From Planctomycetota bacterium (GTDB lineage Bacteria; Planctomycetota; PLA2; JAEUHO01): a stretch of DNA of 64,000 nt. Position numbers and translations under genes: made by a program. A model generated the notes under the pieces. That model was not told the origin of the DNA and did no database searches. It worked only from the letters and a program-made list of their open reading frames with translations. Location: assembly GCA_965222115.1 (NCBI GenBank), contig CBDCTJ010000007.1, forward strand, positions 2,336,001 to 2,400,000, in the 5' to 3' direction. How positions within the stretch are numbered: position 1 is the stretch's first letter; every line of letters begins with the position of its first letter. Positions 21,978-27,735 of this stretch are shown piece after piece.

Positions 21978-23573
21978 GTGGACCTACAGCTCAACGCAAC
22001 CGCGGTCAAGGGTCTCTCGGCGGTTCATATGAACCTCAGTCGTCCCGAGCTCTACGAGGCCATTGTGACGCGTGGCGAGGCGCAGCTGGCCAAGGGCGGC
22101 GCGATTGCCGCCACGACCGGTGAATACACGGGACGATCCCCCAAAGACAAATACATCGTGTCCACGTCAACCACGGAAAACGTCATTTGGTGGGACGGCA
22201 AAGAAGCGCATCGATTTACTCGCGAGCAATTCGATGCACTTCATAGAAAACAACTCGACTACCTCAAGGGCAAAGAACTTTTCGTGCGTGATTGCTACGC
22301 TGGCGCAGGTGAACAGAATCAAATGCGCGTACGTATTGCAACGGAGCGCGCGTGGCACAACTTGTTTGCGCACAACATGTTTCGGCGAGTGAACGACGCA
22401 GACGTCCTCAAGAATTGGGAGCCTGAGTTTTCGGTGCTTCAGACCCCCGGATTTTCCGCCACGCCCGACGCCGACGACACGCGCTCCGAGGTGTTTGTTG
22501 CGCTCGACTTGGAGCGCCGCCTCGTCATGATCGGCGGCACGCGCTATGCGGGCGAAATCAAGAAGTCGATCTTTACGGCGCTCAATTACCTATTGCCCCT
22601 GAAGGGCGTACTGGGTATGCACTGCTCGGCTAACACGGGAGCCAATGGCGATAGTGCCGTGTTCTTTGGGTTATCGGGCACAGGAAAAACAACGCTCTCG
22701 GCCGATGCATCGCGCGAGTTGATTGGTGATGACGAGCACGGGTGGAGCGATCAGGGCATCTTCAATTTCGAAGGCGGTTGCTACGCCAAAGTGATTCGAT
22801 TGTCACAAGAAGCCGAGCCCGAGATCCATCGCACCACGGGCATGTTCGGCACCATCCTCGAGAACGTTCCGTTCTTCCGAGGCACGCGCATTCCCAACCT
22901 TGACGACGATTCGCTCACCGAGAATACGCGCGCGTCCTATCCGCTGGAGAGCATCGACAACATCGTTGAGTCGGGCACGGGCGGGCACCCCAAGCATGTC
23001 ATTATGCTCACCTGCGATGCGTTTGGCGTGTTGCCACCCGTGGCCATGCTCTCGCCGGAACAGGCGATGTATCACTTCATAAGCGGGTACACGGCCAAAG
23101 TCGCGGGTACCGAGCGGGGCGTCACGGAACCCAAAGCCACGTTCTCCGCATGCTTTGGCGCGCCCTTCATGCCGCTACATCCCGGTCGTTATGCCGAACT
23201 CCTAGGTAAGAAGATCGAAGAACACGGTACCCGTTGCTGGCTGCTCAATACCGGCTGGAGTGGGGGCGCCTATGGCGTTGGATCCCGCATGCCCATACGC
23301 TATTCGCGTGCGCTTTTGAATGCCGCCCTCGCGGGCACCCTCAACGATGTCGAGATGCGCGTCGATCCCACCTTCGGGGTGTCGGTGCCGGTGTCGTGCC
23401 CCGGCGTCCCGGATGAAATCCTCGATCCGCGTAGCGTGTGGGACGACACGTCCGCCTACGACGAAAGGGCCGCCAAGTTGGCGCAGATGTTTCACGAGAA
23501 CTTCAAAGCCTTTGAGGACGGCGTCACGCCTGCAATCCGCAAAGCGGGCCCGCGGGTGGGGGCGGCGGTGTAG
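21978..23573 (+). CDS. pckA: Phosphoenolpyruvate carboxykinase (ATP)
   Basis: TGRSPKDK, YAGEIKKS, MHCSAN, GLSGTGKTTLS, LIGDDEHGW and NFEGGCYAK motifs; GGAG RBS before GTG 21978. Confidence 0.97.
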   Translation: MDLQLNATAVKGLSAVHMNLSRPELYEAIVTRGEAQLAKGGAIAATTGEYTGRSPKDKYIVSTSTTENVIWWDGKEAHRFTREQFDALHRKQLDYLKGKELFVRDCYAGAGEQNQMRVRIATERAWHNLFAHNMFRRVNDADVLKNWEPEFSVLQTPGFSATPDADDTRSEVFVALDLERRLVMIGGTRYAGEIKKSIFTALNYLLPLKGVLGMHCSANTGANGDSAVFFGLSGTGKTTLSADASRELIGDDEHGWSDQGIFNFEGGCYAKVIRLSQEAEPEIHRTTGMFGTILENVPFFRGTRIPNLDDDSLTENTRASYPLESIDNIVESGTGGHPKHVIMLTCDAFGVLPPVAMLSPEQAMYHFISGYTAKVAGTERGVTEPKATFSACFGAPFMPLHPGRYAELLGKKIEEHGTRCWLLNTGWSGGAYGVGSRMPIRYSRALLNAALAGTLNDVEMRVDPTFGVSVPVSCPGVPDEILDPRSVWDDTSAYDERAAKLAQMFHENFKAFEDGVTPAIRKAGPRVGAAV

Positions 23574-23627
23574 CTCGGATCCTTCCGCCGCAATCCGACT
23601 ATTGAATCGCCGAGCGCCGAATTAGCG

Positions 23628-23690
23628 CTTCGCGACCTCGACCGCGTTCGCGCGATGTTGAACGCGCTCGTCCGCCGCTGGAGGGCGTGA
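23628..23690 (+). pseudogene. 3'-terminal fragment of a type-B four-helix bundle gene
   Basis: Encodes LRDLDRVRAMLNALVRRWRA*, nearly identical to the end of 10018-10404 (LRDLDRVRAMLNALIRRWRE*). Confidence 0.8.
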
Positions 23691-23765
23691 GGCACTCTCA
23701 TTCATTCAGCGATTCTCGAAATTTGGTGCCAGGCGCAGATTGCGTGTGTCATCCAGTAGCGCACT

Positions 23766-23822
23766 CCCGTTACCCGAAACCCGTTACCCGTTACCCGACA
23801 CCCGCAACCCGTTACCCGGACT
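23766..23822 (+). repeat. Composite repeat unit 5, left half (heptamers up to the CT insertion point)
   Basis: CCCGTTA-type heptamers ending GTTACCCGGA-CT. Confidence 0.88.
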
Positions 23823-24791
23823 TCTATGAAAGGGCCTGGCATGTCAAGTGCGAAGCCGCGTCGGCGAGCGCATTTACCGCGTTGTGCATGTGTAGTTCGG
23901 CCCCTTGAGTGCGCAACTTACCCTTACCGCCCTTGCCTTTTTGGCAGCGGATCGGGGCGAATCAGATTGCCAGTCATCGTCTCTGGCGCCAGAAAACACG
24001 TCCCATTCAGGCTTCTATGCGCACTCGTGTTGGATCGAAGTTGATGCGACCCGGTGCAAGGTGGGGTCCGAGAACGAGTCTGGGTGCTGCATACTCAGTA
24101 GCGACGTCGCTATACGTCGGTCAGGGCACCGCAGTCACCCGGACTTCTATGAAAGGGCCTGGCATGTCAAGTGCGAAGCCGCGTCGGCGAGCGCATTTAC
24201 CGCGTTGTGCATGTGTAGTTCGGCCCCTTGAGTGCGCAACTTACCCTTACCGCCCTTGCCTTTTTGGCAGCGGATCGGGGCGAATCAGATTGCCAGTCAT
24301 CGTCTCTGGCGCCAGAAAACACGTCCCATTCAGGCTTCTATGCGCACTCGTGTTGGATCGAAGTTGATGCGACCCGGTGCAAGGTGGGGTCCGAGAACGA
24401 GTCTGGGTGCTGCATACTCAGTAGCGACGTCGCTATACGTCGGTCAGGGCACCGCAGTCACCCGGACTTCTATGAAAGGGCCTGGCATGTCAAGTGCGAA
24501 GCCGCGTCGGCGAGCGCATTTACCGCGTTGTGCATGTGTAGTTCGGCCCCTTGAGTGCGCAACTTACCCTTACCGCCCTTGCCTTTTTGGCAGCGGATCG
24601 GGGCGAATCAGATTGCCAGTCATCGTCTCTGGCGCCAGAAAACACGTCCCATTCAGGCTTCTATGCGCACTCGTGTTGGATCGAAGTTGATGCGACCCGG
24701 TGCAAGGTGGGGTCCGAGAACGAGTCTGGGTGCTGCATACTCAGTAGCGACGTCGCTATACGTCGGTCAGGGCACCGCAGTCACCCGGACT
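23823..24791. repeat. Three tandem 323-bp direct repeats (23823-24145, 24146-24468, 24469-24791)
   Basis: ACCCGGACT recurs at 23814, 24137, 24460 and 24783; the units appear identical. Confidence 0.95.
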
Positions 24792-24852
24792 CGAATTGGG
24801 GTACGTGGAAACTGACCTTATCTAATGCTTGCCTAAAGCTGTTGCGCGAGGT
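24469..24852 (-). ncRNA. Putative bridge/seek RNA region downstream of the transposase
   Basis: Location typical of IS1111. Contains a target-like segment (ACCCGG-TG-CAAG-GTGGG-GTCCGA), donor-junction-like segments (TCCCAT and CTTCTATG) and stem-forming sequences. Exact ends unknown. Confidence 0.65.
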
Positions 24853-25902
24853 TCAGGCGGCCACTGGGCATCGAACCGGTATGTACTCTTCGCCTGTTCG
24901 CCACAGCGCAAGCATGAGCACGGAGAGCTTGCGTGCCACGGCGATGACTGCCTTGCGTTTCGCAACTGCGCCTCCACGCGCAATGATCCGCTCACCGTGG
25001 GACTTTAGATCGCATGGCGGGCCCAGTCGCCCGAGGATGTGATGCGCGCACTGAACGAGCAACGACCGAACCATACGGTCCCCAGCCTTCGTTATGCGTA
25101 GCTGCTTGTCCATTTGGCCGGATTGATCACGCCGTGGAACCATCCCGAGAAACGCCCCGACATCTCGGCGGTCTTCAAACCGCGCCCAATCTTGAACGGT
25201 TAACATGAATGCGAGTGCCGTGAGATTGCCCACGCCTGGAATCTGAGTGAGCAACTGTGTATCTGGATATCGCTCGTTCGCCAACTCATCGATCTTTGCG
25301 TCGTAGATCTTTACCAACTCAGTGATTCGCTCGATTGCACCGAGAAGGGGACTAAGCACATCGTAGAGCTCCTCCGGAATCTCGGCCCGCGTCTTCGTTC
25401 CGATGCATTTTGATGCCTGCTTACGCAACCGCCCGCCCATGCTCTTAATGACGCCTCGTAGCGAGTTCACCAACTTGGTTCGTGACGACACAAGCGCGGC
25501 TCGTGCACGAATCAGCGCAAGGTCTCGTTGTGCGGACTCCGGTCGATGCCGAATTGGGGCAAGTAGTTGGGGATCGAAGCGACCGATTTCAGCCAACTTC
25601 TTGGCATCCGTTCGATCGGACTTGCGAGTGTTCCTGTAAATAAAGCTTAGCTCTCGCGGATTCGCGACTAGCGACTGAGCACATCGACCTTCGACGACCC
25701 GACTCGCCCAAGGCGAATGCGTTCCCGCCTCCATCACAACTCGAGCGGTTCGGTGCTTCGATAGAAACTCGTGAAACGATTCGCGCGTTGTCGCTATCTC
25801 GCCTTCTTCCTTCTGAACCCCCGTGTCTTGATCTAAGACGCAATACCAAGAGAATCGGTCGCCTAAGTCGATGCCAATCGTTTCGGTGATACGCTTATGC
25901 AT
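24853..25902 (-). CDS. IS110 family transposase/recombinase
   Basis: TIGIDLG, VMEAG and KSDRTDA (DEDD RuvC-like domain); IPGVG...GMVPRRDQSG...ITKAG; AVARKL; AGGAGGAG RBS. Confidence 0.95.
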   Translation of the reverse strand: MHKRITETIGIDLGDRFSWYCVLDQDTGVQKEEGEIATTRESFHEFLSKHRTARVVMEAGTHSPWASRVVEGRCAQSLVANPRELSFIYRNTRKSDRTDAKKLAEIGRFDPQLLAPIRHRPESAQRDLALIRARAALVSSRTKLVNSLRGVIKSMGGRLRKQASKCIGTKTRAEIPEELYDVLSPLLGAIERITELVKIYDAKIDELANERYPDTQLLTQIPGVGNLTALAFMLTVQDWARFEDRRDVGAFLGMVPRRDQSGQMDKQLRITKAGDRMVRSLLVQCAHHILGRLGPPCDLKSHGERIIARGGAVAKRKAVIAVARKLSVLMLALWRTGEEYIPVRCPVAA

Positions 25903-26001
25903 GCTGGTAGCTCCTCCTGGGCCGTAGAGCCCGCTTATTGTTTGCAGCACGGTTTACCGTGACTGCGCGACAGAGGAGCTACCGGCCTTTTCATCCCATC
26001 T

Positions 26002-26100
26002 CAAGTGTGAGCGTCCGATAGTCGATTCACGCCAGCTCGTGGACGTGGACGTGGACGTGGACGTGGACGTGGACGTGGACGTGGACGTGGACGTGGACGT
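26002..26100 (+). repeat. Composite repeat unit 5, right half: core remainder + (GTGGAC)x10
   Basis: CAAGTGTGAGCGTCCGATAGTCGATTCACGCCAGCTC-(GTGGAC)10, matching unit 4. Confidence 0.9.
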
Positions 26101-26247
26101 CGGAGGCCAAGGGTGGAGCCCTTGAGCCGGAGACCGCTCTCAGCTCCCTTCATGTGAGCAATTCAGCGGCGTGCCGCCACGCAACGTGCCCAGCAGCCAC
26201 CGAATCACGCCCCGAAACGTTTGGGCTCTGCGTCGTTGTGTGACGTA

Positions 26248-27735
26248 CTACCCAGTCAAACTCGGCTTGGCACCAAGGCTCACACCCACGCTCGACTTGT
26301 CAAAGCGCACGTACTCCCATGCGAACTCGTTGCCGTTGATGCCCTTGCGGGGCGGGGCGATCCAACTGGCGATCTTACCGACCTCGAAGACGGGTGTCAT
26401 GAGGCTCTTGACATAGGCCTGGTCACTGCTGCCGGGGAGCCATGCGTCGCGGTTTTTGTTGAACTCGTCCTCGGTGACGGGCTCGCCTTTGGGATCGAAA
26501 TGGCCTGCGCTGTAGATGCCCATGTTGCGGTGGAAGCGGCGGTGGGGGAGCTCGAATCGGAAGTCAATCTTCTCCTTCTCAAGGATTCGATTCCAACGGC
26601 CCACGACAAATACGCAGTCGCCAATGTAGCCGTCGCGCAGCACTTCATTCATGGCGTTGCGCAGCGGTACCTGCTCCGTGGTCAGCGACACCTTGGTGCC
26701 GCCATTCTTGGTAGGGACTTGCATCTCGTAGGCGCCTTCCAATGCCTTATGGTCTTCGTACTTTGATTCTTTGTAGCGACCCTTGAGGCCATTGGCGAAG
26801 TACACGGATGCGTTGTTGCTGATCTCGCCGCCAAAGAGATTGACCGAAGAACTAAACCAACGATTGATGTAGCGCTGAATGGTCGGCAAATCGATCACGC
26901 CCTGCTGGCGCAGCTTCTCGGGATCGTCGGTCTTGAGTTCATTCATGGCTTCTGCGGTGCGTTGAATCACACGTCCCACGCCCGTCTCGCCCACAAACAT
27001 GTGGTGGGCCTCCTCGGTGAGCATGAATTGCGTGGTGCGGGCAAGGGGGTCTAGGCCCGATTCGGAGAGCGCAAGCAATTGGAACTTGCCGTCGCGGTCG
27101 GTAAACGTCGTAAACATGAAGAACGAGAGCCAGTCTTCCACCGGCTCATTAAACGTGCCCAGGATGCGCGGCGAATCTTCGTGACCGCTACGGCGCCGCA
27201 AGAGATCGTCGGCCTCTTCACGACCATCACGTCCAAAGTGCGTGTGAAGCAGGTACACCATGGCCCACAAGTGTCGCCCTTCTTCAACATTCACCTGAAA
27301 GAGGTTGCGCAAGTCATACAAACTCGGCGCGGTCTGCCCCAAGAGACGCTGCTGTTCGACGCTGGCCGGTTCCGTATCGGCTTGTGTCACAATGATGCGA
27401 CGGAGCGCATTCCGGTATTCGCCGGGAACCTTCTGCCACGCGGGTTGACCCGCGAAATCACCGCAAGGAATCGTGCGGTCCACCTCCTGGGGCTGTAGGA
27501 AAATGCCCCAGCGATAATCGGGCATTTTGACGTAGCCAAATTGTGCCCATCCATCGCGACCCACGTCGATTGCGGTGCGCAGATAGATGTCATCTGCTTG
27601 GAACCCCTCAGGCCCCATTTCTTTCCACCAATCGACAAAGTGGGGTTGCCACGCCTCAAGGGCGCGCTGCAACCGTCGGTCATCTTTTAGACCAACGTTG
27701 TTGGGAATCTTGGCATTAAGGTCCACATTGCCCAT
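26248..27735 (-). CDS. boxB: Benzoyl-CoA 2,3-epoxidase subunit B
   Basis: KIPNNV, WW..MGP.GFQ, QADTEPASVEQQ, VNVEEGRHLWAM and MLTEEAHHMFVG diiron motifs. Confidence 0.95.
   Translation of the reverse strand: MGNVDLNAKIPNNVGLKDDRRLQRALEAWQPHFVDWWKEMGPEGFQADDIYLRTAIDVGRDGWAQFGYVKMPDYRWGIFLQPQEVDRTIPCGDFAGQPAWQKVPGEYRNALRRIIVTQADTEPASVEQQRLLGQTAPSLYDLRNLFQVNVEEGRHLWAMVYLLHTHFGRDGREEADDLLRRRSGHEDSPRILGTFNEPVEDWLSFFMFTTFTDRDGKFQLLALSESGLDPLARTTQFMLTEEAHHMFVGETGVGRVIQRTAEAMNELKTDDPEKLRQQGVIDLPTIQRYINRWFSSSVNLFGGEISNNASVYFANGLKGRYKESKYEDHKALEGAYEMQVPTKNGGTKVSLTTEQVPLRNAMNEVLRDGYIGDCVFVVGRWNRILEKEKIDFRFELPHRRFHRNMGIYSAGHFDPKGEPVTEDEFNKNRDAWLPGSSDQAYVKSLMTPVFEVGKIASWIAPPRKGINGNEFAWEYVRFDKSSVGVSLGAKPSLTG

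What the first reader, a model, noticed from the sequence alone, without database searches (positions are those of the whole stretch)
24001..24092. Putative guide segments readable in the IS non-coding region
Seen in each 323-bp unit (first-copy coordinates): 24049-24071 ACCCGG-TG-CAAG-GTGGG-GTCCGA closely mimics the target ACCCGG-ACT-CAAG-TGTGGG-CGTCCGA. Positions 24001-24006 TCCCAT and 24012-24019 CTTCTATG match the two halves of the predicted circle junction TCCCAT-CT-TCTATG. CGAGTCTGGGTGCTGC (24075-24090) can pair with GCAGTCACCCGGACT at the unit end. Inference: these are the target- and donor-binding parts of a bridge/seek RNA. The collinear ~23-nt target mimic looks longer than the short split guides described for IS621.
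Basis: partly seen in the sequence, partly recalled or inferred. Interest (0 to 1): 0.7.

Follow-up and report, generated by a model that had tools for sequence, protein, structure and literature searches.

The report
Bridge RNA gene of an IS1111-type element
The flagged stretch lies inside the gene for the guide ("bridge" or "seek") RNA of an ordinary IS1111-type insertion sequence; one proposed guide is real, but the proposed long "target mimic" is the part that recognises the element's own end, not its target.

Summary
Window 23823-25999 is an IS1111-group insertion sequence. Its transposase is on the minus strand, it has subterminal inverted repeats, and a CT core flanks both ends. A 323-bp end unit is triplicated.

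Each unit carries a ~155-nt structured RNA gene on the minus strand. I built a covariance model from relatives and found the RNA in 15 of 151 sampled genomes of the phylum. 93% of pair cells are paired and 26 of 37 pairs show compensatory changes.

Comparing the loops with each element's own ends and flanks assigns the guides (copy 1 coordinates):
It matches the IS end perfectly in 18 of 21 elements.
- 24059-24068 is the second donor guide.
- The target loop is at 24091-24101 and 24120-24129, almost wholly outside the flagged interval.

It is about 77% conserved in relatives that sit in unrelated targets. It is identical in two sister copies inserted elsewhere.

TCCCAT is not supported as a guide.

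This is a new member of a known kind. The tandem array fits a pattern already reported in a 2026 preprint.

The parts
23823..25999 (-). Whole insertion sequence (copy A), carrying a triplicated 323-bp end unit. Sister copies with one unit are 1536 bp.
   Evidence: Ends fixed by two sister copies with different flanks and an unoccupied paralogue of the site.
23821..23822 (.). Core dinucleotide CT at the left junction. The second copy is at 26000-26001.
   Evidence: CT flanks all three copies. 14 of 16 unoccupied paralogues have CT at this place.
24853..25902 (-). Transposase/recombinase gene, 349 aa from the ATG.
   Evidence: Pfam PF01548 (E 2.6e-18) and PF02371 (E 4.4e-22). The G-x-x-P-x4-SG motif is visible in the translation.
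23826..23836 (.). Subterminal inverted repeat, left arm. The right arm is 25984-25994.
   Evidence: The 11-nt arms are complementary at 10 of 11 positions in copy A and 11 of 11 in copies B and C. Relatives have the same arrangement.
23823..24791 (.). Three tandem 323-bp units: 23823-24145, 24146-24468 and 24469-24791. Each holds the RNA gene plus the IS end.
   Evidence: TRF gives period 323, 3.0 copies, 100% identity. Contigs of runs X1 and X2 span the unit-unit junction at 24116-24166 with 0 differences.
23992..24146 (-). Bridge/seek RNA gene, copy 1. Copies 2 and 3 are at 24315-24469 and 24638-24792.
   Evidence: Covariance model R1 scores 133.5, 133.5 and 139.1 bits. The strand is fixed by G-U pairs kept in 25 of 26 sequences.
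24012..24019 (-). Left-donor guide. It has the same sense as the IS 3' end plus core.
   Evidence: 7 of 7 identical to the element's own end plus core in 18 of 21 elements and 6 of 7 in the other 3. The variable dinucleotide agrees in 21 of 21. 0 of 20000 permutations reach this.
24001..24006 (-). TCCCAT. It copies the first six bases of the other IS end but is not supported as a guide.
   Evidence: Relatives have no such copy at this position, and it does not follow variants of the end.
24020..24058 (-). Stem P4 (24020-24026 with 24053-24058) enclosing hairpin P5 (24032-24052).
   Evidence: P4 is 99.4% paired. P5 is 96.0% paired and all 6 of its pairs show compensatory changes. Coordinates.
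24059..24068 (-). Right-donor guide, complementary to the core plus the first bases of the transposase-proximal IS end.
   Evidence: 71 of 98 Watson-Crick pairs with the element's own end in a fixed register across 14 elements. 10 of 20000 permutations reach this. Three end variants are each matched by changes in the loop.
24076..24090 (-). 3' strand of outer stem P1. It pairs with 24130-24146, the 5' strand that contains the internal ACCCGGACT.
   Evidence: Helices 1-3 have 14 pairs, 10 of them with compensatory changes, and are 88.9-98.0% paired.
24091..24101 (-). Left-target guide side of the target-binding loop.
   Evidence: In 13 relatives this loop side shares on average 7.15 contiguous letters with the element's own left flank plus core, against 3.97 for foreign flanks. 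0 of 10000 permutations reach this.
24102..24119 (-). Inner hairpin P2.
   Evidence: 98.0% paired, and all 4 pairs show compensatory changes.
24120..24129 (-). Right-target guide side of the target-binding loop.
   Evidence: In 18 relatives it shares on average 6.72 contiguous letters with the complement of the element's own right flank, against 3.44 for foreign flanks. 0 of 10000 permutations reach this. It pairs with copy A's flank at 7 Watson-Crick plus 1 G-U of 9 positions.

Best explanation
The flagged interval is the 3' two-thirds of copy 1 of a bridge/seek RNA gene. The gene belongs to an IS1111-group insertion sequence and is read on the minus strand, downstream of the transposase.

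The RNA has two domains:
- Domain 1 is stem P1 enclosing an internal loop and hairpin P2. [quoted passage not shown] The 3' side has the same sense as the left half plus core, so it pairs with the bottom strand.
- Domain 2 is a loop around stems P4 and P5. Its 5' side pairs with the transposase-proximal IS end.

By inference from IS621 and ISEc11, the recombinase uses these four short pairings to bring the circle junction and the target together and to exchange strands at the CT core.

Its likeness to the local target is incidental.

None of this element's three insertion sites is a full match to its target loop. Copy A matches the right guide only.

The threefold unit ends at the true IS end and begins at an internal site that is 11 of 12 identical to copy A's flank. 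It most likely arose by unequal exchange at that short repeat. I cannot tell whether the recombinase made the exchange (a half-site reaction) or ordinary slippage followed by homologous recombination did.
For: **Shown**
- The transposase domains are present.
- Ends, core and inverted repeats are fixed from three copies and an empty paralogue.
- The RNA region is conserved in relatives.
- The consensus structure has 37 pairs. On 26 distinct sequences 93.0% of cells are paired, against 31.2-47.0% when partners are slid. 26 of 37 pairs show compensatory changes, and 0 of 500 shuffles reach the observed values.
- The target-loop sides match each element's own flanks far better than foreign flanks: 0 of 10000 permutations for each side, with n = 18 and n = 13.
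- The donor-loop sides match each element's own ends: 144 of 147 letters with 0 of 20000 permutations, and 71 of 98 pairs with 10 of 20000 permutations.
- The order of the guides, with the top-strand-complementary one 5', is what the seekRNA paper describes for IS1111-type elements (section read).
- The three copies are identical across 24638-24792 but have different flanks.

**Inferred**
- Expression of the RNA, its binding to the protein, and the chemistry of strand exchange.
Against: - No RNA data: no RNA run is on record for this organism. No promoter-like site was found by the simple scan. No Rfam family matches.
- Alignment A2 was fitted to the model, which favours the structure. The sequences are related, so the permutation figures overstate independence.
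- Stem P3 is weak: 4 pairs, 2 of them G-U, with little variation.
- For the window's own element, guide-to-site matches are poor. Site A scores 7+1 of 9 on the right guide and 3 of 6 on the left. Site B scores 1 of 9 in the family register (a 6-nt match in a shifted register) and 4 of 6. Site C scores 6 of 9 and 4 of 6.
- The segment's likeness to the A target is nominally unusual (28 of 3000). It exceeds that of relatives' equivalent segments, which score 8-13 against 17.
Confidence: 0.85

Rival explanations
1. 24049-24071 is a long, collinear target-binding guide, and this element therefore uses a guide layout unlike the short split guides of IS621.
For: 20 of 23 letters align to the rebuilt target with three gaps. 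Only 28 of 3000 random genomic 39-mers score as high. The window's version scores higher (17) than relatives' equivalent segments against the same target (8-13).
Against: - The segment is 61-87% identical in relatives that sit in unrelated targets.
- It is unchanged in sister copies B and C, whose flanks differ.
- Its variable core follows the IS end, not the flank.
- The rest of it is stem strands with compensatory partners.
- All blocks have one sense, whereas known systems pair with both DNA strands.
- The match was chosen after the fact, and the whole-region test is weak.
Confidence: 0.04
2. No functional RNA. The conserved sequence is a set of DNA sites, such as protein-binding or promoter elements of the IS end, and the stems are accidental.
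For: There is no expression data and no Rfam match. A conserved TTGACA-like motif near the IS end in relatives (seen by eye) shows that part of the end does act as DNA.
Against: - 26 of 37 pairs keep pairing through changes on both sides.
- G-U pairs kept in 25 of 26 sequences are valid on one strand only.
- The loop sides track flanks and ends on both DNA strands.
- The layout equals that of RNAs shown experimentally for this IS group.
Confidence: 0.04
3. On the origin of the array only. The 3-unit array is a product of the element's own recombinase acting on an internal pseudo-site, not of host slippage or homologous recombination. The DNA coding the 5' strand of P1 looks like the right half of a target.
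For: - The internal site pairs with the right-target guide at 6 Watson-Crick plus 2 G-U of 9 positions and carries the core. It is 11 of 12 identical to copy A's flank.
- The likeness runs across the crossover point into the other half of the uninterrupted target: 13 of 13 with one mismatch.
- The unit boundary is the authentic IS end. A preprint reports this as typical of tandem non-coding units next to IS110 transposases (section 8 read).
- Half-site recombination is reported for IS621 (abstract only).
- On contig C1 two solo end pieces are cut at the CT inside the donor-guide DNA.
Against: - A 9-12 bp direct repeat 323 bp apart is enough for slippage, and later copies can arise by RecA-dependent unequal exchange. 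The product would be identical.
- Four unoccupied paralogues score as well as site A.
- This is one locus only.
- The left half of the internal site matches the left guide at 1 of 6 positions.
Confidence: 0.4

Closest known systems
seekRNAs of IS1111-family elements (ISEc11, ISPa11, ISKpn4; Siddiquee et al. 2024, PMC11187229; abstract and sections 6, 9, 10, 13 read)
   Same: - The non-coding region lies downstream of the transposase, and subterminal inverted repeats are present.
- The RNA has a segment complementary to the target's top strand 5' of one complementary to the bottom strand, and the two overlap at the crossover.
- The short form (about 82 nt) and long form (about 154 nt) fit domain 1 alone (71 nt) and both domains (about 150 nt).
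   Different: - The sequence family is different, and no Rfam match was found.
- The transposase has 349 aa, at the top of the range that paper gives.
- The RNA gene is present three times in one copy.
- The natural sites of this element match its guides only in part.
IS621 bridge RNA (Durrant et al. 2024, PMC11208160, passages read; Hiraizumi et al. 2024, PMC11208158, passages on handshake guides read)
   Same: - Two internal loops, the first for the target and the second for the donor.
- Each loop has one side pairing with the bottom strand and one with the top strand, and both sides include the core.
- The core is CT, reading the strand opposite to the transposase here.
   Different: - The RNA lies at the other end of the element.
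- Within each loop the order of the two guides is reversed.
- The inverted repeats are long.
- The right-target guide of most close relatives pairs with only one core base.
Tandem non-coding repeat units beside IS110 transposases (bioRxiv 10.64898/2026.08.14.744561; section 8 and passages containing 'tandem' read)
   Same: An array of non-coding units lies next to the transposase gene. The unit boundary keeps a left-donor (IS end) match only.
   Different: Here the other boundary can be named. It is the DNA coding a stem strand of the RNA, which resembles the right half of the occupied target.
ISPpu9 with its ssr9 module (Pares-Guillen et al. 2025, PMC12288879; abstract and section 15 read)
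   Same: An IS110-family element has a separable small-RNA module downstream of the transposase, with AG/CT crossovers at module borders and solo module copies elsewhere in the genome.
   Different: - The unit here has no second copy of the left-end box.
- The paper reports ssr9 as not required for transposition, whereas this RNA has the guide layout.

Membership tests
IS110 family, IS1111 group | DEDD (RuvC-like) N-terminal domain plus the IS116/IS110/IS902 C-terminal domain | tested here: met
   PF01548 E 2.6e-18 and PF02371 E 4.4e-22, both above their curated cut-offs.
IS110 family, IS1111 group | G-L/x-x-P-x4-S/T-G motif in the C-terminal domain (as given in PMC11187229 section 6) | tested here: met
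   G-M-V-P-R-R-D-Q-S-G read by eye in the translation. No alignment to reference proteins was made.
IS110 family, IS1111 group | Subterminal inverted repeats of about 7-17 bp | tested here: met
   11-nt arms at 23826-23836 and 25984-25994, set 3 and 5 nt in from the ends. Relatives have the same.
IS110 family, IS1111 group | The longer non-coding region lies downstream of the transposase gene | tested here: met
   About 384 nt downstream in the single-unit form, against 97 nt upstream.
IS110 family, IS1111 group | Insertion at a core dinucleotide present on both sides, without other target duplication | tested here: met
   CT flanks all 3 copies. An unoccupied paralogue reads straight through.
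IS110 family, IS1111 group | Circular intermediate with abutted ends | not testable with these tools
   The contigs laid covered only the unit-unit junction, and a tandem array explains that equally well.
Bridge / seek RNA | Conserved structured RNA with two internal loops | tested here: met
   37 pairs, 93.0% paired, 26 with compensatory changes, on 26 distinct sequences. The alignment was fitted to the model.
Bridge / seek RNA | One loop pairs with both strands of the target, overlapping at the core | tested here: met
   Met at family level: 0 of 10000 permutations for each loop side. For the window's own element the matches are only partial.
Bridge / seek RNA | The other loop pairs with both IS ends (the donor junction) | tested here: met
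   144 of 147 letters and 71 of 98 pairs, with 0 and 10 of 20000 permutations reaching these.
Bridge / seek RNA | The RNA is made and bound by the recombinase, and is required for transposition | not testable with these tools
   No RNA run is listed.
Any Rfam 15 family | Match to a curated covariance model | tested here: not met
   0 matches at E up to 1 over 23500-26300.

The most novel reading that the evidence does not exclude
The DNA of the bridge RNA gene is itself a substrate for its recombinase. There are two cases:
- The part coding the donor guide necessarily copies the IS end. It served as a false end, giving the truncated solo end pieces on contig C1.
- The part coding a stem strand happens to resemble a target half-site. 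It served as a false target half, giving the threefold amplification of the RNA gene in this window.

Self-mimicry of guide genes would then be a built-in source of IS110-family rearrangements and of changes in RNA gene dosage.
Probability: 0.3. Interest if true: 0.55.

Novelty: new member of a known kind. Interest (0 to 1): 0.3.

Why it matters
The result gives a correctly annotated natural IS1111-type guide RNA from a little-studied bacterial lineage. All four guides are placed by comparison across 20-odd relatives, and a covariance model finds the family where Rfam has none.

It also shows how reading guides from a single sequence can mislead. Conserved stems and donor guides can resemble a local target by accident.

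The three natural insertions all match the target loop only in part, and the RNA gene is amplified at a half-site-like repeat. These are small natural data points for the current discussion of half-match recombination and off-target insertion by bridge recombinases.

Tried and rejected
- **Rfam.** A scan of 23500-26300 at E up to 1 gave nothing.
- **Single-sequence folds.** Folding either strand gave z-scores of -0.6 to -2.2, which is not decisive.
- **The search for related loci.** Searching genome contigs with the single transposase gave 595 pattern hits, none confirmed. I used the genome search instead.
- **Relic idea.** I tested whether the repeat family holding site A is a decayed relic of the RNA gene. 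The best local alignment scores 23 against shuffles at mean 19.75, sd 2.3, max 33, so this is not supported.
- **Perfect cognate target.** I searched this genome for one. None was found within 1 mismatch in the family register, and one at 2 mismatches. In the shifted register there is none exact and one at 1 mismatch. The assembly is about 90% complete.
- **Promoter scan.** 0 sites were found, against 0.8 expected.
- **Sequencing runs.** No RNA holder is listed. The DNA contigs come from one study and may be the assembly's own data.
- **Earlier notes of this scan.** Nothing was returned for this place.
- **TCCCAT as a guide.** Rejected.
- **Longest-common-substring scoring for the window's own three sites.** It gives 3, 6, 3 for the right guide and 4, 4, 3 for the left, within or near the foreign range of 2-5. 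Only the fixed-register count separates site A.
- **Rows dropped before the tests.** I dropped L030 and L043 as near-duplicates of L033 and L053, and the window's own three sites. Elements whose end or flank could not be located were left out, giving 18 of 25 non-window rows with a right flank and 13 with a left flank.

Full report
**What is in the window**

- Bases 23814-24791 are a 323-bp unit repeated 3.0 times at 100% identity.
- To its right, on the minus strand, lies an ORF (24853-25902 from the ATG). Its product carries the two Pfam domains of IS110-family transposases: PF01548 at E 2.6e-18 and PF02371 at E 4.4e-22.
- The translation shows the G-x-x-P-x4-SG motif that the seekRNA paper gives for these enzymes (paper section 6 read).

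**Ends of the element**

- The same genome holds two more complete copies, both 98.4% identical. They are on contig C7 at 506880-508415 and on contig C3 at 484746-486286. Each has a single unit, so the element is 1536 bp in its simple form.
- Comparing the three copies and their different flanks places the ends at window 23823 and 25999, with CT on each side.
- The site of the window's copy (A) is one of 17 members of a repeat family on contig C7. The 16 unoccupied members read straight through, and 14 of them have CT at the crossover.
- Eleven-nt subterminal inverted repeats lie 3 and 5 nt inside the ends.
- With the long non-coding region downstream of the transposase, these are the marks of the IS1111 group.
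The strings it quotes are at the stated coordinates, apart from one wrong letter in the quoted target.

**A conserved RNA**

- A DNA search of the 40 genomes of the order found a conserved block of about 140 nt in 7 of 40 genomes, own genome included. It corresponds to window 24654-24793 on the minus strand.
- Eight sequences aligned well. RNAalifold gave a two-domain structure of 37 pairs.
- A covariance model built from it found the RNA in 15 of 151 sampled genomes of the phylum. It scores the three window copies at 133.5-139.1 bits.
- On the resulting alignment of 26 distinct sequences, 93.0% of pair cells are paired, against 31.2-47.0% when partners are slid by 1-3 columns. 26 of 37 pairs change on both sides, and 0 of 500 shuffles reach the observed values.
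- Two cautions apply. The alignment was fitted to the model, and the sequences are related.
- G-U pairs kept in 25 of 26 sequences fix the strand as that of the transposase.
- Rfam has no match.

**Which parts are guides**

For each relative I located the inverted repeats and read off the ends and flanks from the stored loci.

- **Left-donor guide.** The two positions that vary among elements (four types) agree in 21 of 21. 0 of 20000 permutations reach this.
- **Right-donor guide.** The 5' side of the same loop (24059-24068) pairs in a fixed register with the first bases of the other end at 71 of 98 positions in 14 elements. 10 of 20000 permutations reach this. The three elements whose end differs each carry matching changes in the loop.
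- **Right-target guide.** The first loop, between stem P1 and hairpin P2, tracks the flanks. Its 5' side shares on average 6.72 contiguous letters with the complement of the element's own right flank, against 3.44 for foreign flanks (18 elements, 0 of 10000 permutations).
- **Left-target guide.** The 3' side of the first loop shares 7.15 letters with the element's own left flank plus core, against 3.97 for foreign flanks (13 elements, 0 of 10000 permutations).
- **Window coordinates.** In copy 1 these loop sides are 24120-24129 and 24091-24101.
- **Agreement with print.** The order, with the top-strand-complementary segment first, is what the seekRNA paper reports for IS1111-type elements. The logic of two loops, each pairing with both strands and including the core, is that of IS621.

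1. **CTTCTATG as a donor guide: supported.**
2. **TCCCAT: not supported as a guide.** In the window it does copy the first six bases of the other end, 5 nt from the donor guide. Relatives have no such copy at that position, and the neighbouring conserved UGG(G) does not follow changes of the end.
3. **The 23-nt 'target mimic' (24049-24071): not supported.**
   - It maps onto four bases of hairpin P5, the 5' strand of P4, the right-donor guide and three of the four bases of the P3 strand.
   - It is 61-87% identical (mean 77%, 25 rows) in relatives inserted at unrelated sites.
   - It is unchanged in sister copies B and C, which sit in different sequences. There are no differences among the three copies anywhere in 24638-24792.
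   - Its resemblance to the A target is nominally unusual: score 17, reached by 28 of 3000 random 39-mers, while relatives' segments score 8-13.
   - However, it was picked after the fact. In the whole-region test the best hit is elsewhere and is reached by 25 of 1000 controls.
   - The window-specific letters that raise the score also improve pairing of the donor guide with the core.
4. **The pairing of 24075-24090 with the unit end: real.** It is stem P1, with 14 pairs, 10 of them compensatory. It closes the target loop and is not a guide.

**The element's own sites**

I scored each site in the family register against all 297,305 AG sites of contig C7.

| Site | Right guide (of 9) | Share of AG sites as good | Left guide (of 6) | Share of AG sites as good |
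|---|---|---|---|---|
| A | 7 Watson-Crick + 1 G-U | 0.36% reach 7 | 3 | 15% |
| C | 6 | 2.6% (from the same counts) | 4 | 2.7% |
| B | 1 | not unusual | 4 | 2.7% |

- Site B also has a 6-nt exact match in a register shifted by several bases.
- No full match to both guides exists in this assembly.
- Four unoccupied paralogues of site A score as well as A.
- All three insertions thus look like partial matches. A preprint reports half-match insertion for IS621 (abstract only).

**The tandem array**

- Each unit runs from the true IS end back to an internal site in the DNA coding the 5' strand of P1.
- That site carries the core, is identical to A's flank at 11 of 12 positions, and pairs with the right-target guide at 6 Watson-Crick plus 2 G-U of 9 positions.
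- The likeness to the uninterrupted target spans the crossover: 13 nt with one mismatch, reached by 7 of 1000 controls.
- Contigs of two public runs contain the unit-unit junction (24116-24166, no differences). They come from one study and may be the data behind the assembly. A free circle of the unit would give the same junction.
- A 2026 preprint describes tandem non-coding units beside IS110 transposases whose boundaries keep only a left-donor match. This array fits that pattern.
- Whether the exchange was made by the recombinase at a half-site or by slippage at the 9-12 bp repeat followed by homologous exchange cannot be told from sequence.

**Verdict**

This is an ordinary, well-formed IS1111-type element with its guide RNA, a new member of a known kind. 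The finding is right that guides can be read here and right about one of them. It is wrong about the target guide and about an unusual guide length.

Noticed in passing
window 23823-24791: The RNA gene plus IS end is present three times in tandem in this copy, but once in the two sister copies. The unit starts at an internal site nearly identical to the flank of this copy.
   Followed up: partly
genome contig C1 602198-602388 and 603932-604122 (loci L006, L007); also C1 600989-601148: Two solo pieces of about 192 bp come from a 92% relative of the IS end. Both stop at the CT inside the DNA that codes the donor guide and are followed by a target-like flank. Both sit in the same kind of short palindromic repeat. 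A separate fragment of the other IS end lies nearby. Possible origins are excision that used the guide-coding DNA as a false end, or a mobile mini-element.
   Followed up: partly
window 23766-23818 and 26002-26100; 16 further places on contig C7: This is a repeat family of unknown role. It has a run of 7-nt repeats (CCCGTYA), about 40 conserved bases, then 6-nt repeats (CGTGGA, 10.5 copies here). The IS sits between the heptad run and the conserved block.
   Followed up: partly
locus L042, last ~100 bases: In a relative from another genome, the last ~26 bases of the IS plus 19 bases of flank occur twice in tandem. This is another small duplication at the same IS end.
   Followed up: no
locus L010 (whole, 1769 bases): A second copy of the related IS begins about 100 bases after the end of the first. 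Its left flank matches the left-target guide better than the first copy's does.
   Followed up: no
window 24469-24640 (and the same part of each unit): The window's element has about 130 extra bases between the RNA and the IS end that relatives lack. A TTGACA-like motif just inside the end is conserved across relatives. It may be the outward -35 of a junction promoter, as known for other IS110-family elements (recalled, not tested).
   Followed up: no
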